DNA of 64,000 nt from Bilabrum cf. latius (Eukaryota). Where the stretch lies: assembly GCA_965178125.1 (NCBI GenBank), contig OZ237735.1, forward strand, positions 2,170,001 through 2,234,000, given 5' to 3'. Below are positions 1 through 64,000 of the stretch, one piece after another. Made by a program: the position numbers and the translations under genes. The notes below the pieces were generated by a model. It worked only from the letters and a program-made list of their open reading frames with translations. It made no database searches and was not told where the DNA came from. The first letter of the stretch is position 1. Each line of letters starts with the position of its first letter.

Positions 1-2685
1 AATACAGCGTTGGCGGTGCTATTGTACCCTGGGTCTGCAGACTCAGAGGAGTGCGAAATCGCGTAAGTCTCCTGGCCCTCTACCACGCCATCCGTGATGG
101 CCTGCACCTGGATCGTCCTGACTGAATTCCAAGCGATGCTGGCGTCCGCGCCGACGTCGACGGTGGGGTCAAACACGAGGATCCTGGGCGAGACGTACAG
201 ATCATCGAGCGTTGCCAGCGACGTGTCTAGCGTCACAGTCACTGTGCTGGTTGGCCTGGAGTCCAGTTGCACAGTATACGTCGCATTCGAAGCGCCCTCC
301 GTAGCACTGACAAGAGCGCTGGATATGGTAATTCCAGCGGTCTGAACATCAAAAATGCTCACACGCACGAAGGGTGAGGGCAGGAACAGCTCGGTCTGGC
401 CAACAAGCGCACTGCTCCAGCGGTTGTCAGTGCTCGTCGTATTGTGGAAGATAATGGCACTCTCCTCCGGCTCTGCCAGCTCGTCAGCCACTGCGGTGAC
501 GGTGACATCCTACCATTGGTCCCAGTTGATTGCCGTGAATGTAAGGAGAGATGGCAGCGCAGTGATCTCAGCAGCCTCGGCAGTGCCTGGGGCGATGCCT
601 ACAGACACGGTGACGGAGTTGGCGGGCTGCGTATCCAACCGGACCGAGTACGTCGCGGTGAGGGTTCCCTCAATCACGTCGACATCTGCATTTGAGATAA
701 GGACGTGGCGCTCCTTCTAGATATCATACACGTTCACGGTCACGTTGGGGCCCGGCAGCACGGCAGCGCCGTCATACTCTCCATCGGCGCTAGACACGTC
801 GTGGGTGATCACGACGGCCTGCTCTTCCACTTCACCCTCAATATCGTCGCTGATGGCCACCACATCCACAGTCACGGGAACGTCATAGTTCCCGGAGTTG
901 AACGTGATGGTGCGAGGGCTCACCCCGACCTGGCCGGCGCGGGTAACGGGAAGCACGTCAAGAGTAATTGTGACCGCAGCTGCCGGCTCAGAGGCAAGGC
1001 GGACAGTGTAGGTATCGTTGTTGCCGCCCTCCGTGACCGAAAGATCTGACCTGGACAGCAGCACGGAAGCTTTGTCGTCGTCGTAGACATCAACGTTCAC
1101 CACACCTCCGGCAGGCCGCAGGACCGCGCTGTCGTACCTCGTGTCATCACCCCGCACGGTATGCACCAGGCCCACGGTCCAGGGTGACACGGCAGCATCC
1201 ATCGGGTCGTTAGAGGCCATCACGCTCACGGTCACAGTCTGGCTGCAATTCGAGTCAGAGAAGACTGTGAACCCGCCGCTAGTGCTTATCGTCGGGCTCC
1301 CCACTGGCACGCCTCCAACAGCAGACACCCAAGAGATCACGCTAGCAGCAGTCGCGGCGTCTCCACCGGGGCCTCCCGTCATGGAAGTGACGCTAGTGTG
1401 AGTCCAGTCCACAACGATCGGCGTGGCTCCGTCTTGCGGGCAGCTCGCCACGGTGATGTCGTAGGTTACCGCCGCACCGGCTTCCACCACGGCCAGCGAA
1501 ACTTCACTGAAGTCCACTGCGGCGTGCTCGTCATCAAAGACTGCAACACCTACGGTTGGCAGTGATAGTGTGCTTGCACCGTCCACGTAGAGCGGGTCCT
1601 GTGTGAGAGTGACGGAAAAGTCCAGCTGAATGGAAGTGCTGGGCGTTACCCTATCTTCATCGTCGTCCACGGCCTGCAGCTGCACCGACTGCGGGGTGGA
1701 CCAATTGCCAGGGCCGTACGTCAGAACAATCGGCAGAGCACCCCCCGCGTCAGCCGGCAATGTAACGGAGAGCAGGCTGTCTGCCAGCGGGCTAACAGAG
1801 CTGATGGTTACCTGAACGAATGAGGCTGGCTGGCTTGCGAGAGACACGTCGAACGAGGCGGAGTCGCTCCCTCCTCCACCACCCTCCACCACGTAGACGA
1901 ATGACTATGAAACCAACACTCCGCTAGCATCATCATCCAGAAGAGTAAGGTTTACGTAAGGCGATGGAGAGAAGAGCCCAGCCGTGCCAGAGAAATTTCC
2001 ATCCGTGCTTGTTGCGGTCAACTCTACCGCCCCCGTGAGTGACGGGTCGCTTGCCGACAGCACATCATCACCTGAGGATGATATAGTGAATATTGCTGGC
2101 GTGCTCCAATTCGACGAGGTAAAGACAACAAAAGACGGGTCCAGCTGAAGCGGTGCCGAGCTGAACTCAATCGACAGCCGAGGGTGCACTGTCACTGGTG
2201 CGGCTGGAGCCTCTGACAGCACCAGTGTGAATGAATCCGTATTGCCAGGCGCGGACTCTCGAACATAAAGATGCGCATCAGACAGGATGACTGCGATGAT
2301 TAAGAAACAAGGTGTTTGGGTTGCATGTGCTTGAGCACGGCGTAGTGCCAGCAAGCTTGAGTATCGCTGCCTTACCCTATGCTGTGCTACATTCTACATT
2401 AGTTACCGAAAACCAGGACCTATCTCTCAGACAATCGCATGAGGTCCTATCCGAGGAGCTCGTGCTGAATGCTGGGCATGGCGTGCACGTGAAGTTTCCC
2501 GAACTGGGCTTGAACGAACCACTCGGGCAACTTGCGCAGGTTCCACTAAAGGTCTGGTTAAATTGACCGGGACCACAAGTGCTTGCATTACTCAAGCCCA
2601 AGAGCGAAGCTGCTACAACTGCAGCATGCCAACGCACGCTGAGGGACCGAGGCGCCCGGGCAGCCTTCTTTGACCGGCAACCCAT
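1..2685 (-). CDS. Large secreted/surface protein: signal peptide, Cys-rich (ephrin-receptor-like/GCC2-GCC3-type) module, then at least 6 tandem Calx-beta/Ig-like repeats; 3' end lies beyond the window
   Basis: ATG at 2685 (MGCRSKK...AAVVAASLLGLSNA, hydrophobic leader), then CGPGQF...CPSGSFKPSSGNFTCTPCPAFS...CDC. Intron 2291-2375. The frame then stays open to position 1, with only TAG interruptions (2377, 1905, 717, 510). Repeats of ~130 aa follow the pattern V.EG...YtV.L...P...VtV...P..L.F...NW..pQ.V.V.a..D. Confidence 0.85.
2291..2375 (-). other. Spliceosomal intron (85 nt)
   Basis: G|GTAAG donor and CGCAG| acceptor. Removal joins ECSTA(TAG)V to ILSDAHLYVRE in frame; unspliced, the upstream frame hits TGA. 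Confidence 0.85.
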
Positions 2686-3054
2686 CGTACGCCCGTGAGA
2701 GCTCAAAAACTGAGATATGTCCCTAATCAAAGCTGCGAACAGCTGCCAGGCAAGACTTTGAGCTCCTGCAAGGCCTGGCTGAATCGAAACGGCGTCGACC
2801 GCTTCCAGCAGCCTCTCTCTGCGCACTCTGTCGCGAACCTGGAGATTAAAGTGACTGGCTTTGTGGTTGTCTGTACGCAAATCTGCAAAACAGCACGAGA
2901 AATCTGAAATGCCAGCCTACTGGCTTGTGTATGCAAGCGATTGCTTTCGGGCGGTTTCAAGCAGCAGGTTGGTCGCGAAATTGAGACGGCGGTCGCATGA
3001 TGTTCCGCAAATTGGTGCGCGGCGACTGAACGCACATTTTCACAATTGAATATC

Positions 3055-6000
3055 ATGAGCTTGCTAACGAATCTGCATGACCTGTCAGATTCTGCCATAT
3101 TGAATGAAGCTAGAAGACGGGCCGGTTTGGTTGTAAAGGAGAGGGTTTCTACGGAAGCCGAACCTAAAATGCATGACAAGAGGCGCCTGGGATCCCAGGT
3201 AGCAGGCCCCGCCAACGTTGACTTCGGTGATTATATGCTAGAAGGTGATGGAAATATATCATTAGACGATCTTGCGTTTGGCAGAAGCTCTGGTGCTTCT
3301 TTCCAGAAGTAGTCGAGTCAAGCCGACTCGAATCAGCACAACAGAGCCGATGCCACTACGGCACGAGCTGCAGGTTCCGTTGGTGATTTGGAGGGATCCA
3401 GTAAGTTCGGAGTGTATGGTTTGTAGCATTCAAAGAGCCCAGATGGCCAAGTGCTGGAGCGTGGCACTGGGTCTGGCTCTCCTTGGACACGCTCGCCTGC
3501 AAGCACACCGGGAAGAAGAAGATCCACACGAGATATAGGTGGGATGAGCTAGGACTTGAGGCAGGCTCCTCGAAGACAACCCCTTACACTTGGAGATGAG
3601 ATTGGACCAATGGGAGCCATTCGCGTGATGCTGTCCCCTGGGGCGCGCGGGTCTGCTGGCGTCGACCAAATTCGCAAGTCGCAAATGGCAGATGATTCCA
3701 AGGCGTACCGTGGCGGCGGCGTGTCGTCGCTCGTGTCTCCACCCGGCAAATCTACCGGTGCATCTCTGCGAGCGATCGCACGCGCTATTCCTGAGGAGAA
3801 TGGCCAGACCCGGCTGCATCTCGTGGCGAGGCTCCGGCAGCTGCTTGGAGGAAAGGTTTCAGATGCGAGGGCATACGCAGCGGCGCTAGCAGCAGACCAG
3901 GAAGGCGCTGATAGCGCCGGCTACGGCGATGATTTCAGTGCGGAAGGGGTGCTGCGGCCTTGGGTCCAGCGCCACGTCGCGCCTGTCCTAAGCATGCTGC
4001 TGCAGCCTGGCTCGTTGCCGGATCCAGTGGCACCAGCTGTAAGTGCGGAAGCTCACAGCGACTCGAAGCAGGCTGTCATGGCCGCCTGGCGGCAGCAAAG
4101 AGCAGAATGGGAATGCATTACAGTGCTGTGCGCTCTGATGATCCACGTGGGGGCTGATGTGTCCGCTGGCTCAGTCGGCGTGCGGACTGCCTGCGTGAGG
4201 TGCGTGCGTTCCTGCTGCTCCGCAGGGGTGCCAGCCCTGCACCCGTCGGCAATCGTTAGCGATACTAGTGCCCTCGAGCGACTAACATGGCCGTCGGTGC
4301 ACCCCACCGACGGTGATGCAGGCGATGTCTCAGGTAGCTAGCAATAGTACGTGCCCTCGGAGGGTCAATCCGTGGTGCCGCCCCACGCAGTTGCGTTGCT
4401 GTGTGCTGTAGCGTTGAGCAGTCGTATCCGTGCCCCAACGGTCGTAGAGGAAAGCCTTGCTGAAGCGTCTGGGCTGCTTTCCCCGGCTCAACGGTAGTCC
4501 AGAGCGTCTTAGCCGCAAAGCCAGGCAGCTCGACGGCAAGCTGGACTCGCTATTGAGCCTAAGGACTCTCCCCTATGGGCAGCCCGCCAGCTGCTTGCTC
4601 TTGGACGCGACTGCACTGATGCAGTCAGCCATGCATGTCTGGCATCCGTGCTGCATTCTAGGGTTGGACAGCTCGCGCTGCTGAGCCCTTTGCTGTGCGG
4701 TACGATACGCGAGGCTGCTGGTGTAGATCTGAAGTCAGGCGAGCGCATCTTGCTGGAAGCCATTCGTGGCACGTACGGCAGCGCTGGAGCTTCTCGTGAG
4801 CAAGCAGTAATTGACAGCATGTCAGTGACATGTGCTGTACTCTCTCGCCGAGCGATACCCCCAAAGAGTGCCAAAGGGCAGGTCTCTGGGGTTGTCGCTG
4901 CTCTGGCTTCCGTGCTGAGCTCGGTGAATGACCAAGCTGGACTGGATGAATCCAGGGGTATACTTCCAATGCTGGGCCTCGCGTCGTTGCTGCGGCAGTA
5001 GACTAAATCTGCTTCCGCTGGATCCGTAGCTGAGTTGGACGCTCACGTTGCGATTCGGCTCGCAGCCAGAACCATTCGCAGTTCGGATGCTATTCCGAGC
5101 GCAATAGCAGACGCAGTTGCTGGTCATGCCTGTGCCGCATCCGGACTGAGTCTTGAGCCGCTGCGCAGCGTAATTGCAGCTAGCGCGGAAAGCCCGAATG
5201 GTGGCTCTGCGGCCCAAGGCATTGATGGTCTTGCGGCGAAACTAGGCAGTCTGAAGTGCGTGTTCCACGCCTTGTCCCCTCAACAGTGCGCGGATGTAGC
5301 CGCTGCGGTTGGCGATCTCGAGTCGAAAATGCAGCAAGCAGCGTAGTAGGGCGTGCCAAGACAGCAACAAAGTCGCACTCTGTCAGCTGCGATGAATTTG
5401 TCCGGAGTTGACGATGGAGTGGATGCCGGCCGAAACAGTGTCGCCAGTGTGCTCGGTCTGGGAAATTTGAAGCCGAGCTCTAGTTCAGATAAGAGCTCAA
5501 TTTGGATGGATGCTGCCAATGGCGCGGTTCCCGCGACTGGTGGCCTGGATGCTTCGGCTCCATCGACGCAATTCTTCGTTGAAGTTGTTGAGCGGTTGGA
5601 ATCATCGCTTGAGGGTATCTTGCTATCATCCTTGCGAAGCCGTGCTAGCGGCAGTGAGCTTGCTACCATGCCGTAGTAGCCGCATGCTGTGAATTCAAGC
5701 GGCGGCCACGCTGCCTTGAGTGCATCGGTTGCGCGGGCGGGGTTTGCAGCGAATTCCAGCATCGATGCTCACAAGAACAGCACGCGTGGGTCACAGCTGC
5801 TTGAAGAAGCGCTGAAAGAGCTAGAGCCAGATGCGCAGGACCTGTCAGCGTCAGTTGATGGCACATAGACACGGTATCCTGATCTGGCGAAGAATCGTGA
5901 CGCTCAGACTGTGGACAAACCGGAGGCACCCAGGACAACCATCATGTACCGAAGGCGATTCTTGGAACTCAGAAGCTTCTTGGATGAACAGCGCAAGGGA

Positions 6001-8934
6001 GACAGCGCCACAAATTCGACGTTTGAATCCGAGCATGCGCGCTGGGTAGAGCATGCAAAGCCACGGCTGCATGTCGTGCTCTCGTCAACCCACTGTGTTG
6101 CGGCTGCGAACGTCTCCTTGGGCGAAGCTGAACATGGCAAGATGATACTCTCGTCACAGGACGACCTCAGCGACGCCCTTCCGTTGCAACGTTCGCCTGA
6201 TGCAGCCACAATTCCAACCGTTCTGGCTCTTGCAGTTCAGCTGGCTTTTGGGGGGTCGCCTGCACAAGCGACAAGCATCTTGAATGCGATTGCTTCGATT
6301 GGCTGTGAGGGCATCTGGTCTCTCTGCGGCGGGGCTTGTGCACCACTGGCTGCTGCAGCAATTTCCTCACATAGTGCTCAGCAGCATCTGCTCCTCCATG
6401 CAAGATCGCTGCGGTTCATCGATTAGGAACAGCTCTCTGGTCGACCCGGTACGAGCAGACTGGGAGCATCGATGGTGCGAGCGAGCAAGGGCTCCCGTGC
6501 AGCCGCAGGGTCACTTGCGCATTCAACGTGGATTGCAGATGCAGATACGGCCGAACTATTGTCTCCAAAGCCTTGGTAGAGTGTCCATCGACCACGTGCT
6601 TCTTCAGACGTTGATAAAAGGGGGGGCACGGAGTCGCCGTTTCGGCACTGGCTGGAACGCTCTGACGAGGTGTTGGTCCGCGTCTGTGAGTGGGATACCG
6701 CATCGCCAGGCTTCGTGTCGGATCATGACGCCTCTATTGCTTGGAATGATGACAGATAGTCCCAGGAGTAGATTGCAACCACTGCTAGAGTCGCGGCATT
6801 AGTTCTCGCCGTGTTGGAAGCCTGCATGAACCGCAGCAACGCTTCTGTCAAAGCGGCCGCGTACCGTGTTTTAGCAGCAATAGGCCCTGCTTCCATGCTT
6901 CTTGCCTGCGATACGGCAGCAGCAATCGGAGCCGCTCTTGCGGTAGGAAAACACGCAGAGGAGTCGCCAGAGGCTAGCGCTCGGAAGCGTACCGCCGGTT
7001 CCATCGTTGTTTCCAGGGTTGCCGCCTGCAATGCGGTCCTTTCCTTTTAGCGTGTGCTTCGCTAGTTGCGGTCTGCATCAGCTGGTGCGTCAAGAGCGTG
7101 GACAGACGATCTTCATACTCATTTGGACCGCTGCCTTCTCAAACCAGTCGCATCTTCTTTCCTGCTTTCTGCCATTCCCCTGGGCCAGGGGGCTGCAGTA
7201 TTGGCAGGCCTGGGCTCCTTTGGGAGAAGCTTCCTCTGCGGCTTGGCCAGCTCGCTTCTTGGATTGTCGCGATTCGAGGACTGGCCAGAGGCAACCATTG
7301 GATACGATCACCGCGAAGCAGTCCGCCTATCAAATCCAAGCCATGCTCGAGCAGCTATTTGTGGTGTTGTTAACATTGCACTCGAGTGTGTGCGCTCCGG
7401 CATGGATGCTGGAGACAATGATTTGCTTGCGCAGGCGGCTGGCCTTGTCTGGCACGTGCTGCAGGCGAGAGGGGGTCACGCACGACCAGCAGCAGGAAGA
7501 GGCACCTTTGGGGCCGTTGGTGTGCCATCTCGCACTGTCTGCTCTGCCATTGATAGCCTGGTTTACTTGCTTTAGGCGGGTGAATAGGCTTCAGAACCAA
7601 GTGCCGCACTGTAGCCTGACTGGATGTCTGGATCAGACGCTAGGTAGCTCCTGTGTGGGCTCTTGCAGGACCCAGACCTGGTCATCGTGCAATCAGCAGC
7701 AAATGCCCTTGCATCCATTGGTAACGAGGGCAGACTTGTGCTAACAGAGCTTCTGCTATAGGGTGTGCGCCACCTTCGCAGAGCGTAGCTTTCAAGCGGC
7801 TTGCGAAAGAGTGCAGCGTCTGCTCCACAAGCGACTCGAACCGGGCTCACGCTGGCCCAAGTTGGTTGCGTGGTGGAGGCACTCGGTGGTTGCAAGCATT
7901 GCATGCCGCGCCCGATTATCCTTGCCCTGCATCTTGCAGCCACTGCTGCCACCACCAGCCTTGCAGAAGGCAGCGAACGCCTTGGACATAGCCGGAGTAG
8001 CCGCTTATTGGCATCTAAATCGGCGAGTGTTGGGTGGCACCGTATGAAACCTGAAGCACTAGGCTTGACTTTGTCTTCATCGCGCAAGCAGCCTGTCCGA
8101 GACACTGGTTTGCGTCGCCCTGCACGCGGTGCGCTCGCCGTGATGGTGTCTGCTTGCAAGGCCATCCACACGGTGGGGGCAGCTAGGTGCCTAGCCGCGG
8201 TGCTGCAAGGGACCCCGGCGGAGCGCGCTCGAGACTTTCGGCGGACTGAAGCTGCTGCCGAACAGCTAAGTATCATGACCCGGGGCATTCCTGCGTCGCA
8301 GGTGCAATCCCGCGTGCTCCAGGGAGCAGTGGACTCTGCACAGCTTCGAAAGCAGGCTAAACTAGCTTTGCGAGTGTTGAATGCTGTGCGCGAAGTCGCA
8401 GTCGCGTTTGGGGATCGTCTTTGTGGCGGATTACCTGTATCAATTACTGGACGACAGAGCACCCTAGGTGACCATGATGGCAGCGTGCCCGGTCAGAGTC
8501 GAGTTAGTCTTGCCCCGAATCGGCCCGACAGGGTTGCTTCAGTCAGCGGCCCGCTTGACTCCACAGTGCACAGTCAGCATCATTACATTGCCGAGAGGCA
8601 CCCATCGCCAGCGTATCGGGCCGGGGGGACGCATACGCAGCCTGAGCTAGCATCGTCTGGGGCAGGCCCTGTATCTGGCTCTGGCGATGCGTCTGGCGGA
8701 GCGCTGGGCGACACCCATGCCTCCATCGACAGCGGGATCATTGGATTTGTAGATCCAACCGAGGGGATGCCGGAAGAAAGTGATGGTGGCAGTGGTACTT
8801 ATTCGAAGGGTGGAGGCGGGACTGTTGCCCCTGCTGCGCAGTCGGCAGCAAGGGGTTAGACTGGTGCAACTGAGCTTGACGAGGCCTTGCTTGGGGATGC
8901 GCTGCGACTGAGTCACTTGATTATGGGAACCTGA
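3055..8934 (+). CDS. Uncharacterised 1959-aa protein, Ala/Leu-rich, probably alpha-helical (HEAT/ARM-like) repeats with low-complexity inserts
   Basis: ATG 3055. ORF pieces at 3046, 3556, 4648, 5035, 5353, 5911, 6811, 7066 and 7801 are all frame 1 and separated only by TAG. First TAA/TGA is TGA 8932-8934, followed by AT-rich sequence. HEAT-like segments include LEACMNRSNASVKAAAYRVLAAIG and LLQDPDLVIVQSAANALASIG. Confidence 0.8.
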
Positions 8935-9237
8935 TGCAACTATTCAGGCTTTTAATTCTATTCTTCGACAATGACTAATCGAAACTGCTGTGCGAGTAAC
9001 ATTGCTAGATTCCACAATCTCGCGTGGTAAGGTGTACTTTTGGCCGAAATGTGGTTTTTACAAACCGAAAACATCGGGATAGGTCGATCAAACTGTCAGC
9101 TAGATCAATTGACATTTCGTTTCGATTTATATCCTCGGAAATCAATAATTGAATAAAGACTGCATCCGCGGGATTTGATAGTTAGTGAACCTCTCCAGTT
9201 TGGGGTCTATTCTTCAGTTGCACCAGTGGATTGCCAT

Positions 9238-30486: not shown

Positions 30487-30677
30487 TTCGTGGCACTCTG
30501 CGCAGCAGCAACGAAGAAGTGCGACTTCAGCTCGCAGTTCATGGCTGTGGTTCAAGGCAGAGGCCGGGTTGGCGACGGCATTATCTGTCACCCACTGCCA
30601 GTGGAATGTGATGAATGAGCCGAGAACATACCATTTGTGTATTCAACCTGTCACACTTCCTTTCTTCGAGCAAAATT

Positions 30678-34741: not shown

Positions 34742-35216
34742 TGCTAATATACAATAAAAGAGCGAATGTGTAAATATTTGGCGCAGTATTCGGCGGCACT
34801 GCGCTTTGCGCCGCCGCTTTATGTGTTCGTGCGACGATCGTGCGGTGTGCGGCGCCGCGCATGGAACGTTCGATTTCATGTGGTTCCGCAACGTCGAACC
34901 AACCCAGGCGCGAGTGCCCAGATTGGCGGCCCCTGGCTGTTCCTCTCGCTTGTGTACCGTGATATACGGTCTATATCTCGAAATTTCTGTCTTGTTTGCA
35001 CTTTCTGGCTGATACTGTAAAAAGAGAGAACCATTAGGGATACTCTGACCTTGATCCATTGCAATGGGTGATGCAAGCGCGTCCAGGCGATTAGCGGAAA
35101 TTATTTCTAGCCTCAAAGGAGGCAGATAGATCATGCTTAGTAATTAGCTCGTGCGAGCGAGTCAGAGATCGTCAAGGTCCACAAAACGGAGCAGGGCACG
35201 AATCGGCCAGCGAGAG

Positions 35217-38165: not shown

Positions 38166-38355
38166 CCTGCATATCTTGAATAGGTCTGTTAGCAAACATC
38201 AAAATACGGACAGACACAGCATCACGCTGCCTTTGCACACAAAACGATGGGTCGCCTACCTCTGTTGACATGTTTCCAATCGCTGCTAAACAAAGATACT
38301 CGCGAAGACGCTGCGAGGCGGGGCCAGCGACTCTGCCGACAGTCACCTGCATCGC

Positions 38356-38935
38356 TCACGCGATCTGCTGCAGCCGAACAGCGAGCCAAACAGCAGATAT
38401 CGTTGCGATAATCCCAGGAGAAGCAATGTTCCCGATGGTCATATTTCCGAAAACCGTGAACTCGATTCCGAAAAACGTAAGGGCGGCGACGAAAGATCCG
38501 AAAGTTGCAGCCAGAATCGGAATGCTATCAATGTACACAATCGATAGGACACAAAGGAGACACGTGATTGTAGTCCATACGGCAAACAGTCTTGCCAGCA
38601 GTAGACGGACTGCGCGAATCGGGAGTGATCGGCGCAAAGTGGAGTGTGAGGGAGACACCATTTCGTACAAGCAAGCTGCCACACCGAATCCGTATCTTAC
38701 CACGCTTCAGGGCAGAGACTGCGTCCATCAAGCTCTTTGTTTGAGTTGATTCAGAGTCTTCACCAGTCTTCTTGTCATTGATCAACTCAATGGCCTGCAA
38801 CGAGGCATCCTCGACCGGGCTGAAGACCTTCCCCAAAAGCAAGCCCGGCACAGCGTATCCGAGCACCACAGACAGCGTCCGAAACCCCGCCACGATCCCT
38901 AGCCAAATTTTCAATAACAAAACGGCATCCACCAT
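38356..38935 (-). CDS. ERG28: Ergosterol biosynthesis protein 28 family membrane protein (162 aa, 2 exons)
   Basis: WLGIVAGFR...LARLFAVWTTITCLLC...ATFGSFVAALTFFGIEFTVFGNM....SPGIIATISAVWL matches the ERG28 pattern. Intron 38610-38700; TGA 38356-38358. Confidence 0.9.
38610..38700 (-). other. Spliceosomal intron (91 nt) in ERG28
   Basis: G|GTAAG donor and CGCGCAG| acceptor; joins ALKR-V-RLLLARLF in frame. Confidence 0.88.
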
Positions 38936-39062
38936 TTCGTTTCTCTATTTATCCGTATGGAAGGTGCTGAGGTTACCCGAGCCGAACGAAAGTTCGTTCC
39001 CCTACTGCAACTTGATTGAAGTCCCTCATCGAAAACATTCCCAATTGACAAGCGGTTACCGA
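38936..39062. promoter_or_regulatory. Putative compact bidirectional promoter (127 bp) between ERG28 and the Asteroid-like gene
   Basis: Divergent ATGs at 38935 (-) and 39063 (+); AT-richer than the flanks; contains CAATTG at 39042. Confidence 0.5.
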
Positions 39063-41990: not shown

Positions 41991-42109
41991 CCACTAATGC
42001 GACCGTCATCTGGCCCATGGATCAATCCGCGTCGTGCCACAGTGCAGTGCAATCCATCCGTTGCCGATGGGTGGATTGATGACAAATCTCGAATTACTAC
42101 TCCACTTCA

Positions 42110-48100: not shown

Positions 48101-48277
48101 GCAGCGCCTGCCGTGCCAGGCAGTGGAGATCCTTTCACTCTCGCAATCGATGCCCACGATCCTAGTAGACAGGATGATCGGCTCTACGATCCACTGGAGA
48201 GGTCCACATTTGTAGAGCAAGCACTGTCTGGGATGAGAAGGTAGCCATTTGTTGTCCGAAACAAGGTCCGGCGGTGA
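42110..48277 (+). CDS. ~2055-aa protein with N-terminal TPR repeats and two insertion-split cyclic-nucleotide-binding domains
   Basis: Frame 2 is open from ATG 42110 to TGA 48275 except for TAG. TPRs: KGYTLRTQGNLDGAIVAYSKAI, FNRGYAHDRAGHLSLALEDY, FNRATILLRLNRPGEA. CNB1: VFKQGSKSDDLLYIIVQGSV...GESFGQLAL. CNB2: FLRKLSMFEAC...VVKQGARLAGLVLIRRGRC...GDYVGE. Start is uncertain because a small 5' intron is possible. Confidence 0.85.
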
Positions 48278-54400: not shown

Positions 54401-57400
54401 GTGCCGCGCTCGCTTGCATGGAGCGCGCACCGTGAGCAAACTGGTGCAAATCTCCATCGCTGAAGCCATCATGCAGAACCTCCATGGAAGTGAAATCGAC
54501 GAACGATGCTGCGTCTTCAAGCCAGCCATCCGCTGCAGCAGTGTCGACATCTTCTGACAAATAAACTGATGCCAATTGGCGCCCGGTCCCACCCGCTGGT
54601 CCAGTGTCATCGAAGTCGCCCAAGCTGTCGAGGGCAAGGCAAGGATCCGAGCCATTGATCGTGATGACTCTGAACTTCTGCAGTCCAATGACCGTCTGCC
54701 ACGAGAAGCAAAGGCTTGTGGTAGAACACTGCTCTGGGGGAGGGATGAATGGAGCTTGGTACACGATCTAGAGGAAGATGACCAGCATGTTGAACCATCT
54801 CAGTCCAGTGAACATCGGGTCGGATGCCAGCCTAGACCTCGTCGCTTCCGGGCTGTACATGAACCACAAAGAGAACACAAAGTAGCCGCCAATGATGATG
54901 TTCTGCTCAGACTGAATGGAAGCCACCAAGAAGAGGACCAGGATGACTAGGTTCCAGCTGAGCAGACCGATCTTCATCTGGATCCAATCCCAGGCGCTCG
55001 CCATGGTTTGAGCTAGTGCAAGGTCTTGGGTAAGATCCGCTTGCCCAGCGCCGGAATTGCTGGAGATGCCCGTGCGTACAGATCGCGCCCCGGCGGCAGA
55101 AGCTACCGGGGTATCAACTGAGTCCGAACCCCGAGCCACAGAAGCAGCTGCCGAGGCGGAAGATGCGGCCTACCCGTTCTAGATCCCTTTGCCTGCACTA
55201 CTACTGCCGGCAGCAGCTTCACTCTAGGGCTCATGATTTCCATCGCGCTCGACGTCATTCAGAAGCCTCGGTTGGAATCTTCGGCTTCTGCTTCGATGAG
55301 GGTGGTGGTGCTTTTTGGACTTCACATTGAAAGCTGCGTCGGTTCCAGTTCGCTGCGCTTGCTGCAACGCCGAAGCGATTCGATTCGCGTACTTGTCTAG
55401 CCGCTCAGTCTTTGCTTCTTGCTGGCGGTTGAAGGCTCTCGACAGAGCCCCGGCTAGCACCTCGCCGGCATACAGGTGCAGAGCAGATTGCCTGAACCGC
55501 CGGATCTGCTGGCGTTCGACACTTGCGTCCGCACGGCAAAGCCAGTCCAGGTCTTCCGTGCTGAGCACCGGGAACTCTGCTTTTATCTGCCTCCTCATGA
55601 TCTCAAGATCGAGACTGTCGCCAGCGCTGTCCGTGTCTTGGCGACGGACCGACCCAGGAAGCAAGCTCGCCGACTCGGAGTCGGCAATGGTATCGCCGCT
55701 CTTTGAGTCGTCGTCTGCAGCACTCTGCGACCGTTGCATTGCCTACGATCTCGCGCTCTCCTACTCGATACGAGAGAAACCTGCCGTAAGCTGCAGCAGA
55801 GCCTCTGCTGCCCTTTGATCCGTCCACCATTGGCGCTTCGTGAGGCTGGCGATGAGCAGTGCAATGAAATCCGGCAAGAGCTGAAGCCCGGTCACAGTTT
55901 CGCCGACCCCAAAGTAGTACTGCAGGCTTGCGTCTTGAGACCACGGCCACACAGTGTTTCTAGTCGAGTGCAAGAACGGGGGCCAGCCAACTGTAGCAAT
56001 GTAGCGAATAGTAATCATTACAGCAAGCATCGTTGTGAGAGTAGGCCATAGCCATGACCGCACAACGCCTTGGTTCGCCGCCAGATGCTATTGCACAGCA
56101 GCCTTGGCAAAGCTCTGAGCCGGAGACGCAGGCTTGTCATCATCGTCATCTGCTGATGTCACATTCCGGTGGTGGCTCTTTTGAAGCTTTCTCTTCGTGG
56201 CGGGTTTGAACAGATGTGCAGCTGCCTTGTCATCACCCGCGACAAGCAGTGCAAACACTGCCATTAGCAAAAGTATGACGGACCAGATATCAAGGTGGCA
56301 GAACGCGGCCACCACAAGCGCTACCGCGGTCAAATCGTTAAAAACCCGCGCTGAATGACGCTGCAAAGCTTTTCGGAGTCCTTGCCACAAGGACACCTTG
56401 TTGCGATTCAAACGGGCTCGCAGCGCAAGAACGTGCTTTCCGGCGGCCAGAATTGCGCGGTCTCTGGCGCATAGGCCTTGGCGAAACTAGTAGCTGGAAG
56501 CAGCCGCCGATATTCCCTACTGTTGCGAATCAATGTCCTCGACGGCTTCGCTCACGCTGCGGCGCAGCTTTGGGCTACCGTCGAGTAGCGCCGCAATCGC
56601 AGCAGCAGATTCGCTTCCATCTGCAGCGACGAGACGATGCAGAATCGGGGCGTTGTACATAACATCGTACCACGCAGCTAGGCCCAACACGAGTCTAGGA
56701 TCTGCAAGGTCGATGTCCGAATCCTCTGTGATCTGAATGGGCGGCAGCGACTCTTTGGGGGGCAAAGGTCCGTAGTACGACTGCACAGAGGATGACACAA
56801 ACCGGCTTGGTGTGATCACATTCGCTCTTGACGTCCCGGCATCAGGGTTCTGTCGCGTTGAATCCGGCGAATCGCCCGCCGTCGCTGCCGCAGCAGCACC
56901 ACCTGTAGATTCTGGGGAAGATGTCGGGCTCCTCCGTTTCGAGTCTGCGCCTGTTGGGCTCCCAGTGCGTCTGGCCGGCGTGCTACTATCCTTTCTATCT
57001 TGTGTGGAATCCGCTGAACCGCTCGTTCCAGACCCTCCAAGCGCCCTGAGACGAATTCGCTGTATCCGTTGCTCCCCGACGCGACGAAGCAGCTCGACAG
57101 CCGCCCGTTCATGGGACCGCACAGAAACTTCGGTCTCATCTACTAGTCGCTCCATAGCAAGCGCATCCAACGAGCCTGTGCGTTCCAGCTCTCGAAGCTC
57201 CATTGATTCCGCTCTCATTACGTACGATTCGTAGTCATGCGACCAACGCTGCAGGATGCATGCGGCTATTATCACGGCATAACCGACTAGTAGCGACCAC
57301 ATATCATCATAGGAGATCTTGGAGGGGTCTCCGCTTTGCCCGTTGAACTTCGACTCGATGCGGTAAAATCCAATCCACTAGGTCTCATCGCTCTCCCCGT

Positions 57401-60400
57401 ACCAAGTGCCGCTACGGAAGACCTGGAACTGGTAGGCAAAGCTTAGTAGGCACATTATAACACCATACAGAATCACAAGCAGCCAAACGTCCCTGAACGG
57501 GCGTCGTGGTGCTGACGCAATGCGCTCTCGACGCAATAGCTGTGGCATGTAGCCTGCCCTGTAAGCTGAGATAGGTGCTGGAGGCAGGCGCACCGATGAA
57601 GCGGCGTGTCGCAGCAGATGCTCGGTTGCTGCCTCGATCCCTGAGGTAGCTCCATGGCCAGCTGCAAAAGCACCTTCTAGTCTCCTTGCTGCTGCACGAC
57701 GTGCCGCGGCTGCTGACGACCTGCTGCCGTCTGAACCGCTGCTGGAGCCTCCTCCGCTCTCCGACTTGTCATCAAGAGCGACATATCCGTCAAAACCTGG
57801 CTGCACACCCTCCTATTCCGCAATCTTGCGGGCTGCGTGTTGCATATCTGCGTCAATTTTCGCGAACATCGTCACACTGGATCCGGTGCGGGCACGCTGC
57901 CTACCCGTCTCGGCAGCCAGAGTATCAGCAAAGAACTGCACCAGAACTGAGGTAAGGCTCCGACTCGCTCGGAGCTGCTTGCGCCGACGGTAGCCACGAA
58001 TTCGACCGGTGGGTCCCGATGCTGCCCCACTGCCATCCTCGTCATCAGAGGAGGCGTTAGCCTGTTCCCACACCCTAGCAGGGTCCGGCAGTTCGTCAAC
58101 TAGGCGACGAATCTGCCTGGCTGGCATCCCACCTATTTGAACGGCACGTTCAACGGTCATTGCAGACATCTAGCTACGTCGCCTGTCTGTGACGTCAGCA
58201 TCGGACACATCTTGGTCTTGCTGCGTGCTGCACAACCAGCAGCAGCAGCAGAGGCACCGACAAGTCAGCACGTAGTTCAAGCAGGACGTATCAAGTCCAG
58301 CAGGGTCCTACCGATACGTCATGACTGCGGCAAAGATTGTGGATCCTACCGCCAGCATAGTTCCTGTCACAGTGTCTTGAAGAGTCGCAACGACAAATGC
58401 CAACAGGAGCGTCAGCTTTCCGGAGTGATAGAACGCGACTTTGCGGTACCAGTCATACGCGCTGTACAAGAAACGCATGCAAGGATCGTCCGCCCTGAGC
58501 ACATCCTCGTCGTTTTCGATCTGCAGGGTGGCCTCCTGGTCGACTTGCCCGACAGAGTTAGAGGAGCCAGGAGTGAGGCTAGAGGTATCGTACAGGCTGC
58601 TCCGGATCGCAACTCCTCTCCGGCCACGAACGGAGGCAGAAACGGAGCCCGAAGCTCGAGCAGCCCTGACGAACTCTTCCTTGCGGGCAAGCTGAGTCGC
58701 CAAGTCGCTCAAGAAACCTATCTGAACGACCGTTAGCAGCAGCATGGCGAACGAGTCGAGCAACGACACATACAGATCACCAGAGTAGTTGTCGTCCACG
58801 TATCGTTCCAAACCCAATTCCCTGACGGTCAGGAACCGCTGTAGGTCTAGCTGCTTCCAGAAACGGTCTTCAAACCAATTTGCAAGCCCACCGAACTAGA
58901 AAACGTACCGCGCGATCAAATACCCGGCCTAGATTGCGGCCATCACAGTCATGAGGTACATAATCGCTGCAGTCGCAGAACTGCGCTTGATCGGCGCTCG
59001 GACTCCCATCGACAGGTGGGTCCCCATGAGGACAAACAGCATGATCAGTGTCACCAATCCAAGGCAGTCTGGCTCTGGAAGTAAAGATAAGCAGAAGTAG
59101 ACAGCATAGCAAAGCCAAACGCCGTACCTCTGCATAGTCTTTGCTACAAATGTACCGCCGCCGGCCAGCCATTCGTACCTTGCAGTGAGTTCCTCCAGCT
59201 GTTGAGAGTAGACACCTTCTTGCTCGTCAATGTACTGTGGAAGCTGGATCATGCTAAACACGAGGATGATTCCATTCGATACGAACGTGGTCCTCCACAA
59301 CGGACTGCTGTTTGGCCCCACGACCAGCCCGACCACCCACGGAGGCGTGTTTGCCGTCGCGGGGTTGATGTGGTGCGCAGCCACGTGCCAAATGAACAGG
59401 AACGTTATCGCCAGGCTCGTATAGATCACCAGCCAGCGCCAGTAGTCTCTTCTCAGACTGCTTGACACGAAGAAGACGATAAAGATGATCACATACCCCG
59501 TGTGAATCAAGTCTACGTGCGAAAGTCCCAGCACGTACAGGACCGTGAGAGCGACAACAAACGCGTAACCTCGCAACAGGACCAGCGCCGCTGCCACGAG
59601 TGAGTACAGGCTGTACGGCCCAGGTCCACATGAAATGTCCCAACAGGTGTTGTAGCGGAAGTTGCCATGCGTTGAACTTCCGGCCGATGACTCTGTCTCC
59701 GTTGTGGAGTACGAACGCAGGGCACGCTGTGGTTTCGCTGGACTTGGGTGATTCCTGTCGCCGCTTCGCTGTCCAATCAGTGAGCTTGAAAATACAGACA
59801 TTCTCTTTCCTGCGAAAACCCACGACGAAGAGAATGCATGGCGACGATGAAACGTAGCCAGAAGTCAGTGATGGTCTTGTGCGAGTTCATCGTGTCTATC
59901 TCACCTCTTGTAGCCTTTGGAGAAGGTGCTGGGCTATCTGCGAGCAGAGATAAGGATGAGGGGCACACATGGGCGGTAGGGGGGTAAATTCACGAGGGTA
60001 TGAATATGATAAGGTAGATGGGGATTAGCTCACTGACGCTGCTGTTGTCGAGCGGATTGGCCGCAGGGCCGATCTCATCGTCCGAAACGCCCACAGCGGA
60101 CGATAACACACCGCCTCTGTCGGATTTTGAAGCATGCGGCGCATCGTTGTTCGGTGCAACCAGAGCGTGCAAGGGGCTATGAGGCCCTTGGCCAGAAAGA
60201 CCTCCGAAATCCTACTCTGCATCGTCGTGCTGCCCAGCAGACATCCTGTCGGCTTCTCGCGCGGACTGCTGCAGCAGCGTGACCTTGTGGTAGAGAGCCA
60301 AGATCATGAGCAAAGCGAAATTCAGCAAGAGCCGGACGACCGGTCGTAGCAGAGGTACCATACCGCACAACTACCAGACCACATCAAACTCGTCCCGGAT

Positions 60401-62720
60401 GACCCCGCGGCTGTCGTATGGCCCGCCCTGCAGACGATTGGATTCCAAGATGGCGTCCGGCTGCCGCCAGGCGCCAAAAATGCAAGCAGCATAGAATGCT
60501 ACCGCTAGAGCAGCAAGATAAGGAACAAACAGGTACAGCTCTACCCGAGGCCGATCAAACTTCTGCTAGCGGCTATAACAACTGGCCGTCCACAGAACCC
60601 AAAGGAGCAGAGGCAGAGTGGTCAGGCTGGGGTAGGTAGTGCACCAAGCTATCACGAGAACCCCAAGGATAGAAAAGCCTAGCTTTCCTGCGATAATCCT
60701 ACCAGCGACTTCACCTACTAGACCGGATATGCTAGTAATCCGGTCACCGGATCTTGATTTGATCAGCCCCCAGCAGTTGACGCATGTTGCAGCATCCTCG
60801 AGTTCCGTCGACCGATATAGGTCAACTTCGCCCGCATACCCTGACTTAGAGACAACAGAGGCTGGTACACTCACGACACTCATTCTAGTATCCTGACGCG
60901 ACCTGTACCCAAGGTGCCGCATCGCATTATAATCAGATGCCGAGCCAATTCCCAGTTCACCAGGTCGGCTGGATTGCGGCGGCATCTCGAGAGAGCTCAT
61001 GTGAGCCGAATCCCTTCGGACTCCCTCGCGCTCCAGCAAGTCGTGGTCATCAGGGTGCTCTGAAAAGGACCCTTGGCCTCCGCGAGGCGGACTGGCCGAC
61101 CCTTGTCCCGACTCACTCGAATCCTCTCCTATCGTTGCAAGCGGCGAGGAGCCGCCAATTGCGGCCACGGCCGAGTTCCTCCCGGCGATACCGCGATTCG
61201 GGGGACGAGGGGGCGTCGCTCTCCGCTTTGGAATAGCAACAGAAGCGGAACGACCACCCCCAGACATTGCGATGCCGGACCGGCCAGCCATAGCCTTGGC
61301 GCCGCCAGCTGCTGCGGCAGCACCGCCACCTTGAATTGTAGAATTGCTGCCCATGTGAGATGCCCTCGCAGCGCCTCCGCCTGTAGAGCCTTTCCTTTCT
61401 CCAGATGGGTCGTTTTGACCATCGAGCAAAGGGGCCGCGCGATCGGCGGCTGAAGAGTCAAGCCATGCGCTAACTTCAGTGTCGCGACGCGATTTCTGAG
61501 CGGATGACGACGAACCACCCTTGGAGGAGACCCCGCTGATGGCGGAACCGCGCTTTCCAAGCGCCCCGTGGGCATCTGGCAATAGGGATGGAGAGCTGGC
61601 CAAGCTGCTTGGCTTTGTCTCATTCTGCAGCCTTTCTGCTTCGAGTGCAATCCTTCTCACTCGCTCCTTGGCTTCGTGGTACCGCTCTCCCTGCTTGCGG
61701 GCCTGGTCGACTTTCCCGAGCACGCGCTGCGACACGGCCGCGGCAAACGCGTGTAACAGGCCCATGGCGGCGTAGCTTGCGTACACCGTCCAATCAGCTG
61801 CGTCTGTCTGCAGCTGAAGCAGACCCAGGCTCGCACCGACCCTTCGCAGTCGCAAGCGGTCACCCTCTGAAGCGCCCTAGGCGTCAAGGATGCTGGGCAT
61901 GAGCTACCAGAGGTGCCTGTGAAAGGGAAAGATAATAAGGATTCATACGACAGGCGGTACGTGTGCTGGTGTGATCAACTTTGTGCGAGGCAAGGGACTA
62001 GTAACTAGGACGGCTGGGTGAGCAGTTGCATTCTCACAACAGTATCAGCAGGCCACCTGAATACACGTAAATCAGGTGCGCAAACAACTAATCGTGTGAA
62101 ATGAATGGTTCGCGGAAACTCTTCGTCTGTGTCAGGCTCCATCGCAAAACCTGCAGTAGCAGCCCAACGAACAGCGGAGCTGTCAGAGTCGTCGGACGAA
62201 GAATGGATGCGGCTATCAGAGCACAAATGAAAGACGTGGAGGTAAGGCCACGTGCTGATCCTAGAATTGTCCAAGACTTGCGAATCCGATGGTGCTGGAT
62301 AGACTAAGTGAACGCCACCCAGGTAGCGGAGACTATCAGTACGATAGCATCCGGTGCTACTGCCATGAACCAGTCTCCGAGGTTTTCATTCTTGAAAAAT
62401 CCAGCTATGCGCCAAGCAATCAAGCTCCCACTTGTCCCAGATTCGGCGAGAAGGGCTTGAAATATGACGTGCAGCAGGCAAGCGATAGCTGCAGTGCATG
62501 TGGACACCAGCGCAACAATGTACTGCTACTTCGGCTTCCGGCCGAAAAGGCTCAACGGAGACGAAAATACGGGAGCTAACCCGAATGACGCAATTGCAAG
62601 CATGCCATAGACAAGAGAGAATATGGATGGGCGCACCGCAGCGGCAGCCACAAGAACTACCCTTGCTACCCAAGTCGATATCAGGTATCCCTGCGGGGAT
62701 ACACGAGACCGTCTGGCCAT
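48423..62720 (-). CDS. PIEZO: Piezo-type mechanosensitive channel (~4661 aa, 4 exons)
   Basis: ATG 62720 (in-frame TAA upstream), N-terminal VVLVAAAAVRPSIFSLVY, many TM clusters, PFEW-type motif IPFLFELRQILDWT..TSMDVWMWL, inner helix SILAVYTLIIVTLGGLIR, C-terminal LLELCDGIRLAQ...LYRLLLRLHRSPEVLLRIT, TGA 48423-48425. Introns at 61917-62037, 59938-60033 and 59810-59904; all other breaks are TAG. Confidence 0.95.
59810..59904 (-). other. Spliceosomal intron (95 nt) in Piezo
   Basis: AG|GTGAGA donor, CTGAC branch-like motif, TTTTCGCAG acceptor; restores the frame into KRMSVFSS. Confidence 0.8.
59938..60033 (-). other. Spliceosomal intron (96 nt) in Piezo
   Basis: GTGAGC donor, C/T-rich body containing an in-frame TGA, CTCGCAG acceptor. 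Confidence 0.78.
61917..62037 (-). other. Spliceosomal intron (121 nt) in Piezo
   Basis: GTGAGA donor, long pyrimidine tract TCTTTCCCTTTCACAG; joins GLLIL-L-HLW(TAG)L in frame. Confidence 0.88.
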
Positions 62721-63102
62721 GGCCACTTTGGCTTCAAATGCGTCTTATTGGCTTGCGAGTATCTCAGACCAGTCAACTGTGCTTGAAAACGCGGCGGCGA
62801 TCACTGGATTCCGCAACTGCAAGGTGTGTTTCTCCTCAGACACAAGCTCCTTCGAGACCAATTGCCGATTCAACAATGTCTTAATAGGTATCTGTATTTC
62901 CGAAACCTTGATTGAGGGGCAGTTTATTGCCCCAAACCCACTCAGATTTGCATGCCAGCGCCTGGTCTTTTTGCCGATGATCTTCGCACGCAACAATTAT
63001 TTGAACAAACCAGATTTCAGTACCAGCCTTTGGCAGCCGTATACTCAGCATTCAATACTAGTACGACGCCCTTTATTTCCCCAATTCGTTGATAGTTGTG
63101 TT

Positions 63103-64000
63103 ATGGTGTTGTCTATCAGGCAAGATGTGCAGGATGAGCTAGATGTGATTCAAGCGACCTTCCCACAAGGTGACTGCGAAGTTCTACAGGAACTGAGGGA
63201 AAATGCCTCAACACATCATGATGGATTGCCAACGTGGCCGCATCTAACATTAAAATGCATTCTGCAGCCACGAGATGCCATGACAACCAGCGGTCTGCTG
63301 TCTCGACGAGTGACAGCAACCATGTATCTCGGATTTGGATATGCAAAGTATCCCGACGCAGAGCAGCTGCCCGTATTCGTATCCTCAGAAGGAATTGGTT
63401 TGGAGCCACGCCAGCAACAAGTGGTAGCTGAGGCTGCGAGGCGAGCAGCACAAGCCGGCCTAGGCAGCACGTGTGGATGGGCAGTGGTCGCAGCTGCGAG
63501 TGAGGAGCTGGAACGGCTCGTAAAGAATCCACAGTGCGCATCTGCGTCACGAGATAGGGTAGAACGTGCAACCCTCGTGCTGCCTTGCATGCATGTTAGC
63601 CACGCCCGCTGCTGGCACGCATGGACCGCCGCACACACGGATCTTTGGCGCACAGGAAAGGCTGGACGAAGTGCAATGGAGCGTATCAAGTAGAGAATTG
63701 TGGCGGAGCTCGGCTCGGTGGCAGAGTAGCAGCATTCAGTCGACCAGGCTCGCAAGAACGCGCAGGCCAAAGCTGCTGCCACTTAGCGCGCCAAAGGTAT
63801 CGTATCAGGTTTTAAAGGTTCGATTGGGAAGCTCCAGAAAGACATGGAAGATATGAAGGGCAAGCACCGCGACCAGGCAGGGCAAGAGCTGGCAAGCCTT
63901 CAGAGCCGCTTGAGGAAAGCAGAACACACTCTCAGCAGCGCGACCAAGTCGCAATCAGGTGCAGAAAGAGAGCTTGCACGGCTTTCAGAGAGGCTCAGTG
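63103..64000 (+). CDS. RWD domain + RING-H2-like E3 ligase (RNF25/AO7-like), 3' partial
   Basis: ATG 63103. RWD pattern QDELDVIQATFP...KYPDAEQLP...GLGSTCGWAVVAAASEEL, then C...LPCMHVSHARC and a long coiled coil continuing through TAGs (first at 63691) to the window end. Confidence 0.7.

What the first reader, a model, noticed from the sequence alone, without database searches (positions are those of the whole stretch)
1..64000. Nuclear genetic code variant: TAG is a sense codon (glutamine) throughout the window
Seen: every long gene is one continuous frame broken only by TAG (about 55 in the dynein, dozens more elsewhere, on both strands), with no frameshifts or in-frame TAA/TGA outside splice-bounded introns. 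From family knowledge, TAG sits at conserved Gln positions: MGV*GL (39072; XPG/FEN1 MG[VI]QGL); dynein VMY*P (9655; FYYQ), FQE*Y (11269; YQEQY), LEDV*R (12937; LEDVQ), LSS*H (16549; PAQV), AFC*A (17320; TLAQA before the AAA1 P-loop), LSR*KHYDFGLR (18016; LSKQxHYDFGLR), STA*AT (20857; FQRT); Piezo YVF*F (58896) and LW*L. TAG also clusters with CAA/CAG (TAG CAA TAG 4339, CAG TAG TAG 20692). A few TAGs fall where homologues usually have other residues (EF*TAW, LWC*LE), which is expected in such a divergent dynein but is noted. This implies a tRNA-Gln(CUA) and an altered eRF1 elsewhere in the genome.
Basis: partly seen in the sequence, partly recalled or inferred. Interest (0 to 1): 0.97.

Follow-up and report, generated by a model that had tools for sequence, protein, structure and literature searches.

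The report
UAG read as glutamine, nuclear genome
This stretch of a protist's nuclear genome uses the stop codon TAG as an ordinary amino-acid codon, most likely glutamine, while TAA and TGA still end genes, a rare variant of the genetic code already known from a few other protists.

Summary
With TAG read through, ten long frames (19,531 codons) contain 166 in-frame TAG, 0 TAA and 0 TGA. The dynein frame alone is 7,109 codons with 56 TAG.

Contigs from three runs in two studies lack two GT..AG introns that the DNA contig keeps, so they derive from RNA. They match the DNA letter for letter, and their listed pieces cover 40 of the 46 in-frame TAGs in the 20 kb laid. Editing and assembly error are therefore excluded.

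A codon-meaning inference on the dynein against 274 homologues gives Gln as best in 8 of 8 analyses. Bootstraps are 729-992 of 1000, and 59-61 of 60-61 sense codons were decoded correctly as controls.

TAA and TGA end every gene. This is the "table 15" type of code: UAG=Gln, UAA/UGA=stop.

The mechanism, a tRNA-Gln(CUA) plus an eRF1 that ignores UAG, is inferred only. No tRNA gene lies in the window and no genome is held.

A dynein tree places the organism among stramenopiles. I found no report of a nuclear code change in that group. Verdict: real, and a new member of a known kind.

The parts
9157..30486 (+). Axonemal outer-arm-type dynein heavy chain: one frame of 7,109 codons with 56 in-frame TAG, ending in TGA
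   Evidence: Pfam DHC_N1, DHC_N2, AAA_6, AAA_7, AAA_8, MT, AAA_9, AAA_lid_11 and Dynein_C.
18016..18018 (+). TAG at dynein residue 2954 (LSR*KHYDFGLR), in a column that is 96% Gln across 266 homologues
20857..20859 (+). TAG at dynein residue 3901, in a column that is 92% Gln across 51 homologues
12937..12939 (+). TAG at dynein residue 1261 (LEDV*R), in a column that is 68% Gln across 86 homologues
17320..17322 (+). TAG at dynein residue 2722, just before the AAA1 P-loop, in a column that is 55% Gln across 274 homologues
30421..30423 (+). TAG 20 codons before the dynein TGA. It is followed by the conserved dynein C-terminus (HW.RGV), so TAG is sense even close to the 3' end
   Evidence: compare the end of P0006; column.
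21628..21630 (+). TAG at dynein residue 4158, in a column that is 95% Arg. This is the strongest single site against Gln
48423..59864 (-). Piezo-type channel gene: 3,813 codons with 30 in-frame TAG, ending in TGA
   Evidence: Pfam Piezo_THU9_anchor, Piezo_cap and THU_Piezo1.
3001..8934 (+). Frame of 1,977 codons with 26 in-frame TAG, ending in TGA; no Pfam family
42083..48277 (+). TPR and cyclic-nucleotide-binding protein: 2,064 codons with 19 in-frame TAG, ending in TGA
   Evidence: RNA-derived contig covers 43112-49999.
35055..38165 (+). Frame of 1,036 codons with 14 in-frame TAG, ending in TAA
   Evidence: RNA-derived contig covers 34947-37997 with 0 differing letters.
39063..41990 (+). FEN1/XPG-superfamily nuclease-like gene starting MGV(TAG)GL, with 7 in-frame TAG, ending in TGA
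   Evidence: RNA-derived contigs start at 39043/39049 and end at 42097.
32922..35143 (-). BCCIP-domain gene with two exons (intron 34149-34243, GT..AG), 1 in-frame TAG at 34562-34564, ending in TAA at 32922-32924
   Evidence: Two RNA-derived contigs end at 32845, 77 nt past the TAA.
38142..38945 (-). Small membrane-protein gene with intron 38610-38700 (GT..AG), no TAG, ending in TGA
30615..32399 (+). Gene of unknown family with 1 in-frame TAG (30708), ending in TGA. Transcript contigs span about 30656-32429
59990..61942 (-). Membrane-protein frame with 5 in-frame TAG; possibly an upstream exon of the Piezo gene
   Evidence: the intron is only a candidate; no RNA was laid here.
3..2402 (-). Repeat protein with a weak Calx-beta match, running off the window, with 4 in-frame TAG
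62461..63999 (+). Frame running off the window, with 4 in-frame TAG

Best explanation
The window is nuclear DNA of a eukaryote whose genetic code reads UAG as glutamine and keeps UAA and UGA as the only terminators; this is the pattern of NCBI translation table 15. Shown here: TAG is in frame, is present in transcripts, occupies one residue position in homologues, and behaves statistically like CAG/CAA. Inferred, not shown: a tRNA-Gln with anticodon CUA, one base change away from the normal CUG anticodon, decodes UAG, and the single eukaryotic release factor eRF1 has lost recognition of UAG while keeping UAA and UGA. In a GC-rich genome where TGA is the main stop (8 of the 10 gene ends here), UAG would have been a rarely used terminator and so cheap to capture. 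That evolutionary route is also inference.
For: 1. Reading frames. There are 166 TAG, 0 TAA and 0 TGA in 19,531 in-frame codons. The dynein's two wrong frames hold 137 and 253 TAA+TGA.

2. Real genes. Pfam dynein and Piezo domains are spread along the whole frames, across many TAGs.

3. Not editing or assembly error. The DNA run X1 is identical to the window. X5, X6 and X7 (two studies) carry spliced joins at two GT..AG introns that X1 lacks, and show no differing letters. Listed pieces of X5 cover 40 of the 46 in-frame TAGs in 30000-49999, and X6 or X7 cover 13.

4. TAG takes one residue position. The fraction of homologue gaps opposite TAG is 0.112, against 0.127 for CAA/CAG and 0.136 for all other codons.

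5. The meaning is Gln. With 274 dynein homologues, Gln is best in 8 of 8 analyses (4 depth cut-offs x 2 scores). Bootstraps are 729-992 of 1000. The same procedure decodes 59-61 of 60-61 sense codons correctly. Results were the same with 156 homologues. The mean residue profile of TAG columns (Q .152, E .114, K .102, R .100) resembles that of CAG (Q .195, E .137, K .088) and not that of Glu, Arg or Lys codons (E .335, R .270, K .294). TAG columns are as conserved (mean top frequency .384) and as often alignable (32 of 56) as CAA/CAG columns (.391; 184 of 321).

6. TAA is a stop. It occurs 0 times in frame, where about 90 would be expected if TAA stood to TAG as CAA stands to CAG (292:537; arithmetic). 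It ends two frames, and two transcript contigs stop 77 nt past the BCCIP TAA.

7. No dependence on position. TAGs are evenly spread along genes. The TAG 20 codons before the dynein stop is followed by the conserved C-terminus.
Against: 1. The Gln inference comes from one gene.

2. Among TAG columns with a dominant residue, four are not Gln: R .95, Y .70, E .68 and R .59.

3. A raw emission score without background correction preferred Glu at three of four cut-offs.

4. The Gln-over-Arg likelihood margin (2.56) is below the 5th percentile (3.7) of same-size draws of true Gln codons.

5. Bootstrap support in the background-corrected score is only 63-91%.

6. The test of which codons sit next to TAG does not discriminate; the top four amino acids lie within 1 log unit.

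7. The one Piezo homologue has L, F, R, D, V, K and G opposite TAG.

8. No tRNA(CUA), eRF1 or peptide evidence exists here.

9. Whether UAG also terminates some genes cannot be excluded. Two frames have a TAG within 10 codons of their TGA.
Confidence: 0.88

Rival explanations
1. UAG is a sense codon but stands for another amino acid. Glu is the nearest rival, followed by Arg or Lys. Known alternatives in other organisms are Leu, Tyr and Ser.
For: The uncorrected emission score favoured Glu at cut-offs 10, 20 and 40. Single conserved columns show E .68, R .95, R .59 and Y .70. Bootstrap replicates pick E in up to 26% and R in up to 9%.
Against: Once column frequencies are divided by background, Gln beats Glu by 5 to 22 log units at every cut-off. 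True Glu, Arg and Lys codons show their own residue at .29-.34 in aligned columns, whereas TAG columns show E, R and K at only .10-.11. Leu, Tyr and Ser never rank in the top three of the corrected score. Draws of Glu, Arg or Lys codons of the same size are decoded correctly in 96.5-100% of trials.
Confidence: 0.07
2. UAG has a dual meaning: sense inside genes and terminator in some contexts, as in Condylostoma, karyorelict ciliates or Blastocrithidia.
For: In two frames the last TAG lies 8-10 codons before the TGA. Those proteins could therefore end at TAG, and nothing here shows their true C-termini.
Against: The dynein TAG 20 codons before the stop is followed by conserved C-terminal sequence. 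TAGs are evenly spread over gene deciles, with no depletion towards 3' ends. TGA and TAA are available and close every frame.
Confidence: 0.04
3. The TAGs are not translated at all: the genes are pseudogenes, the TAGs are sequencing errors, RNA editing restores CAG, or the codon is skipped.
For: None found.
Against: The frames are free of TAA and TGA over thousands of codons. RNA-derived contigs from two studies carry the same letters. Homologues have a residue, not a gap, opposite TAG as often as at other codons.
Confidence: 0.01

Closest known systems
Iotanema spirale (Fornicata) nuclear code: UAG=Gln, UAA and UGA stops (PMC5304391; abstract and passages read)
   Same: UAG has the same codon meaning, both other stop codons are retained, and the organism is not a ciliate.
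   Different: In I. spirale UAA is the predominant terminator; here TGA ends 8 of the 10 genes. The dynein tree places this organism among stramenopiles, not metamonads. The T32G change reported in I. spirale eRF1 could not be looked for here.
Protocruzia tuzeti and two phyllopharyngean ciliate lineages with UAG (not UAA) = Gln (PMC11687900; passages read)
   Same: UAG alone is reassigned to Gln.
   Different: Those are ciliates. This window is a 64 kb multi-gene stretch at 57% GC, lying within a 117,792-base contig of the DNA run, and its dynein branches away from the alveolate rows.
UAR=Gln codes (NCBI table 6): many ciliates, ulvophycean algae, hexamitin diplomonads, Streblomastix, and Amoeboaphelidium protococcarum as cited in PMC5304391, PMC11687900 and PMC6299283
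   Same: UAG is read as Gln; a tRNA-Gln-derived suppressor is the presumed adaptor.
   Different: UAA is also Gln in those codes. Here UAA is never in frame (0 of 19,531 codons) and ends two genes.
Rhizarian exLh nuclear code: UAG=Leu, UAA and UGA stops (PMC5304391)
   Same: Only UAG is reassigned.
   Different: The amino acid differs. Leu is not among the top candidates here.
Genetic code 15 in crAss-like and Lak phages (PMC9523058, PMC11210395; search listing only)
   Same: TAG is read as Gln.
   Different: Those are bacteriophages. This window has spliceosomal introns, a dynein and a Piezo gene.

Membership tests
UAG=Gln, UAA/UGA=stop nuclear code (NCBI table 15 pattern) | UAG occurs in frame inside conserved protein-coding genes | tested here: met
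   166 in-frame TAG in 19,531 codons. Pfam domains span them. The TAGs are present in RNA-derived contigs.
UAG=Gln, UAA/UGA=stop nuclear code (NCBI table 15 pattern) | UAG is decoded as glutamine | tested here: met
   Gln is best in 8 of 8 analyses with 274 dynein homologues; bootstraps 729-992 of 1000; 59-61 of 60-61 control codons decoded correctly. This is statistical evidence from one gene, with no peptide evidence.
UAG=Gln, UAA/UGA=stop nuclear code (NCBI table 15 pattern) | UAA remains a terminator | tested here: met
   0 in-frame TAA, against about 90 expected from the CAA:CAG ratio. TAA closes two frames. Two transcript contigs end 77 nt after one of them.
UAG=Gln, UAA/UGA=stop nuclear code (NCBI table 15 pattern) | UGA remains a terminator | tested here: met
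   0 in-frame TGA in 19,531 codons. TGA closes 8 frames. Transcript contigs end 20-107 nt after two of them.
UAG=Gln, UAA/UGA=stop nuclear code (NCBI table 15 pattern) | A cognate tRNA with anticodon CUA and glutamine identity | not testable with these tools
   ARAGORN finds no tRNA gene in the window. Rfam finds nothing. No genome is held.
UAG=Gln, UAA/UGA=stop nuclear code (NCBI table 15 pattern) | An eRF1 that no longer recognises UAG | not testable with these tools
   There is no eRF1 gene in the window and no genome is held.
UAR=Gln code (NCBI table 6) | UAA is also used as a Gln codon | tested here: not met
   0 of 19,531 in-frame codons are TAA.
Ambiguous stop/sense codes (Condylostoma, karyorelicts, Blastocrithidia) | The reassigned codon also terminates, depending on its position near the 3' end | tested here: inconclusive
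   One TAG 20 codons before a stop is clearly sense, and TAG is spread evenly along genes. The true C-termini of two genes with a late TAG are unknown.
Stramenopiles (taxon of the organism) | Genes branch inside stramenopile clades | tested here: met
   One gene only. The dynein sits inside a clade whose identifiable rows are Cafeteria, Hondaea, oomycetes and Chrysophaeum; one row's name was cut off in the listing. Support is SH-like 100 (FastTree, 31 rows) and SH-aLRT 100 (IQ-TREE quick, 20 rows). The query branch is long (1.56-1.7) and I chose the rows myself.

The most novel reading that the evidence does not exclude
This would be the first nuclear stop-codon reassignment in a stramenopile. 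It would be an independent origin of the rare UAG-only-to-Gln code, in a GC-rich, intron-poor genome where TGA is the dominant terminator. That setting is the opposite of the AT-rich ciliates in which most such codes arose.
Probability: 0.4. Interest if true: 0.75.

Novelty: new member of a known kind. Interest (0 to 1): 0.62.

Why it matters
Nuclear code changes that separate UAG from UAA are very rare. The papers I read name Iotanema, one rhizarian, Scotinosphaera, Protocruzia and a few phyllopharyngean ciliates (PMC5304391, PMC11687900). Each new independent case tests how one release factor can drop a single stop codon, and whether rarity of a stop codon precedes its capture.

There is also a practical consequence. 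Gene prediction with the standard code would shatter this genome's proteins; the dynein alone would break into 57 pieces. The assembly needs TAG=Gln for annotation, for phylogenomics and for expressing its genes in another host.

Tried and rejected
- Whole genome: none is held, so a search for tRNA(CUA) and eRF1 was impossible.
- Close relatives for TAG-versus-CAG comparison: the scan of metagenome contigs returned only distant dyneins, 38% identity at most. The word-index searches gave 6 dynein hits and 1 Piezo hit.
- The single Piezo homologue (23% identity) is uninformative for TAG columns.
- PDB search with the nuclease-like gene: only weak archaeal FEN-1 matches (E=0.001) that do not reach the N-terminal MGV(TAG)GL.
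- Codon-neighbour test: TAG has the highest share of Gln neighbours (.078 against a background of .042), but the likelihoods do not discriminate.
- Raw emission score: it favoured Glu. I rejected it because it ignores background residue frequency.
- No listed holder is on record as RNA. That X5-X7 derive from RNA rests on the spliced joins.
- Cluster look-up of the nearest unnamed homologues gave no names.
- Rfam scan of the window: no match.
- Literature searches for a stramenopile, labyrinthulid or aphelid UAG-only nuclear code found none. Supplements were closed, so taxon lists kept there were not seen.
Full report
**What is in the window.**
The window is 57% GC throughout. Under the standard code it breaks into 100 frames of 150 aa or more. 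With TAG read through, a few giant frames appear on both strands:
- 9157-30486 +: 7,109 codons, 56 TAG
- 48423-59864 -: 3,813 codons, 30 TAG
- 42083-48277 +: 19 TAG
- 3001-8934 +: 26 TAG
- 35055-38165 +: 14 TAG
- 38745-41990 +: 7 TAG
- 59990-61942 -: 5 TAG
- two frames that run off the window, with 4 TAG each

Ten long frames total 19,531 codons, with 166 TAG, 0 TAA and 0 TGA in frame. The same frames hold 537 CAG and 292 CAA. In the dynein stretch the two wrong frames hold 24+113 and 30+223 TAA+TGA. A 7,109-codon frame free of both cannot be chance.

The frames are real genes:
- The first carries the full set of dynein heavy chain domains from DHC_N1 to Dynein_C.
- The second carries three Piezo domains.
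- Others carry TPR plus cyclic-nucleotide-binding domains, a BCCIP domain, and a weak XPG/FEN1 match.

**The TAGs are in the RNA.**
One DNA run (X1) holds the laid 20 kb (30000-49999) in one contig with no difference from the window. Contigs of X5, X6 and X7, from two studies, skip 34149-34243 (95 nt) and 38610-38700 (91 nt). Both intervals begin GT and end AG on the minus strand, and X1 retains both. These contigs also begin and end at gene borders, and their depths differ by gene from 8 to 180. They therefore derive from spliced RNA, even though the runs are not on record as RNA.

No differing letter was reported in any run. Listed pieces of X5 cover 40 of the 46 in-frame TAGs in that stretch, and X6 or X7 cover 13. 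Only the listed pieces could be counted; 47 further pieces were not shown. RNA editing to CAG and assembly error are excluded for those sites.

**Which amino acid.**
I translated the dynein with X at TAG and aligned it by BLASTP to homologues. The first set was 156 proteins: 6 and 150. The second set was 274, after adding 118 new ones. For each query position I collected the homologues' residues.

I used two scores. One is a substitution model learned from the gene's own sense codons. The other is a Codetta-like sum of the log of column frequency over background frequency.

With 274 homologues, Gln ranks first at all four depth cut-offs with both scores. Bootstraps over columns are 729-905 of 1000 for the background-corrected score and 889-992 of 1000 for the substitution score. 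The same procedure assigns 59-61 of 60-61 sense codons correctly. The 156-homologue set gave the same answer. Random columns almost never return Gln: at most 36 of 500 draws.

The mean profile of the 32 TAG columns is Q .152, E .114, K .102, R .100. This looks like CAG (Q .195, E .137, K .088) and CAA. It does not look like Glu, Arg or Lys codons, whose own residue stands at .335.270 and .294.

TAG columns are as conserved as CAA/CAG columns (mean top frequency .384 against .391). They are also alignable as often (32 of 56 against 184 of 321). Homologues show a gap opposite TAG no more often than elsewhere.112, against .127 for CAA/CAG and .136 for all other codons. So the codon occupies one residue.

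The clearest sites are nt 18016 (Q .96), 20857 (Q .92), 12937 (Q .68) and 17320 (Q .55).

**What speaks against Gln.**
- Four TAG columns with a dominant residue are not Gln: nt 21628 (R .95), 15541 (Y .70), 11968 (E .68) and 23602 (R .59).
- A raw emission score preferred Glu at three of four cut-offs. This is expected, because Glu is simply commoner in all columns, and the preference vanishes after division by background.
- The Gln-over-Arg margin of the TAG set (2.56) lies just below the 5th percentile (3.7) of equal-sized draws of true Gln codons.
- The inference rests on one gene. The only Piezo homologue (23% identity) is uninformative. The nuclease match does not reach the MGV(TAG)GL start. 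The codon-neighbour test does not discriminate.

I put Gln at about 0.9.

**TAA and TGA.**
Neither occurs in frame. If TAA were a Gln codon used relative to TAG as CAA is relative to CAG (292:537), about 90 would be expected. TGA closes 8 frames and TAA closes 2.

Transcript contigs end 20-30 nt past the TGA at 32399, 107 nt past the TGA at 41990, and 77 nt past the TAA at 32922 in two runs. TAGs are evenly spread over gene deciles. The TAG 20 codons before the dynein stop is followed by the conserved C-terminal HW.RGV stretch, so sense reading does not depend on distance from the 3' end.

A dual role for UAG in some genes cannot be excluded. Two frames have a TAG 8-10 codons before their TGA.

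**How it most likely works.**
By analogy with every studied case, a tRNA-Gln with anticodon CUA decodes UAG, and eRF1 has lost UAG recognition. Neither could be examined. The window has no tRNA gene and no Rfam match, no genome is held, and the notes of earlier sessions were closed. In this GC-rich genome TGA is the usual stop, so UAG may have been rare as a terminator before its capture. That is inference.

**Who it is.**
A scan of metagenome contigs found only distant dyneins, 38% identity at most. In a FastTree of 31 rows that I chose (named hits plus top unnamed ones), the dynein sits inside a clade of 14 rows with local support of 100. The identifiable named members of that clade are all stramenopiles: Cafeteria, Hondaea, Albugo, Pythium, Chrysophaeum, Achlya and Phytophthora. 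One further named row, whose organism name was cut off in the listing, branches with Phytophthora. A Plasmodium-containing clade is sister to it. IQ-TREE (quick, LG+G4, 20 rows) gives the same placement with SH-aLRT 100. The query branch is long (1.56-1.7) and this is one gene, so the placement is tentative.

**Comparison with what is known.**
UAG-only-to-Gln with UAA and UGA as stops is described for:
- Iotanema spirale (PMC5304391; abstract and passages read)
- Protocruzia tuzeti and two phyllopharyngean ciliate lineages (PMC11687900; passages read)

Amoeboaphelidium protococcarum is cited as reading both TAG and TAA as Gln (PMC6299283, PMC5304391; passages read). That does not fit this window.

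Nine full-text searches found no nuclear code change in a stramenopile. They found only mitochondrial ones in Labyrinthulea, as a reference cited within PMC12152300. Supplements were closed. The sequence has been present in public runs of several studies since 2019-2025, so its owners may already know.

**Verdict.**
This is a new member of a known kind of code variant. It matters for correct annotation of the genome, and it would be another independent origin of a rare reassignment.

Noticed in passing
window 9157-30486: The dynein heavy chain frame is 7,109 codons, against about 4,600 in its homologues. The excess is long Ala/Ser/Gly/Arg-rich inserts between conserved domains; only about 4,000-5,000 positions align to homologues.
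   Followed up: partly
window 30656-30678, 39043-39063, 32399-32429, 41990-42097, 32845-32922: Untranslated regions look very short. Transcript contigs start 3-22 nt before the likely start codons and end 20-107 nt after the stop codons. Contig ends are not true RNA ends, so this is only a hint.
   Followed up: partly
window 59810-60033 (minus strand): The frame 59990-61942 may be an upstream exon of the Piezo gene. A GTGAGC...TCGCAG interval of 224 nt (60033 to 59810) would join the two frames in phase. No RNA was laid here.
   Followed up: partly
window 44734: One RNA-derived contig (X5) lacks one G of a run of five G. In the window's frame that would shift the TPR/cNMP gene into a stop 17 codons later. 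It is probably a homopolymer error or an allele.
   Followed up: partly
window 43112-49999: A single 19.5 kb contig of X5 bridges the 3' ends of two convergent genes, whose stops at 48277 and 48423 are 145 nt apart. This suggests overlapping 3' ends, or DNA carry-over in that run.
   Followed up: no
window 34149-34243 and 38610-38700: Both confirmed introns are of similar size (95 and 91 nt), begin GTGAG/GTAAG and end GCAG. No other intron was seen in the 20 kb laid, so genes are nearly intron-free.
   Followed up: partly
window 3-2402 (minus strand): A protein made of repeated roughly 100-residue units with a weak Calx-beta match (E=5e-5, below Pfam's cut-off), running off the window.
   Followed up: no
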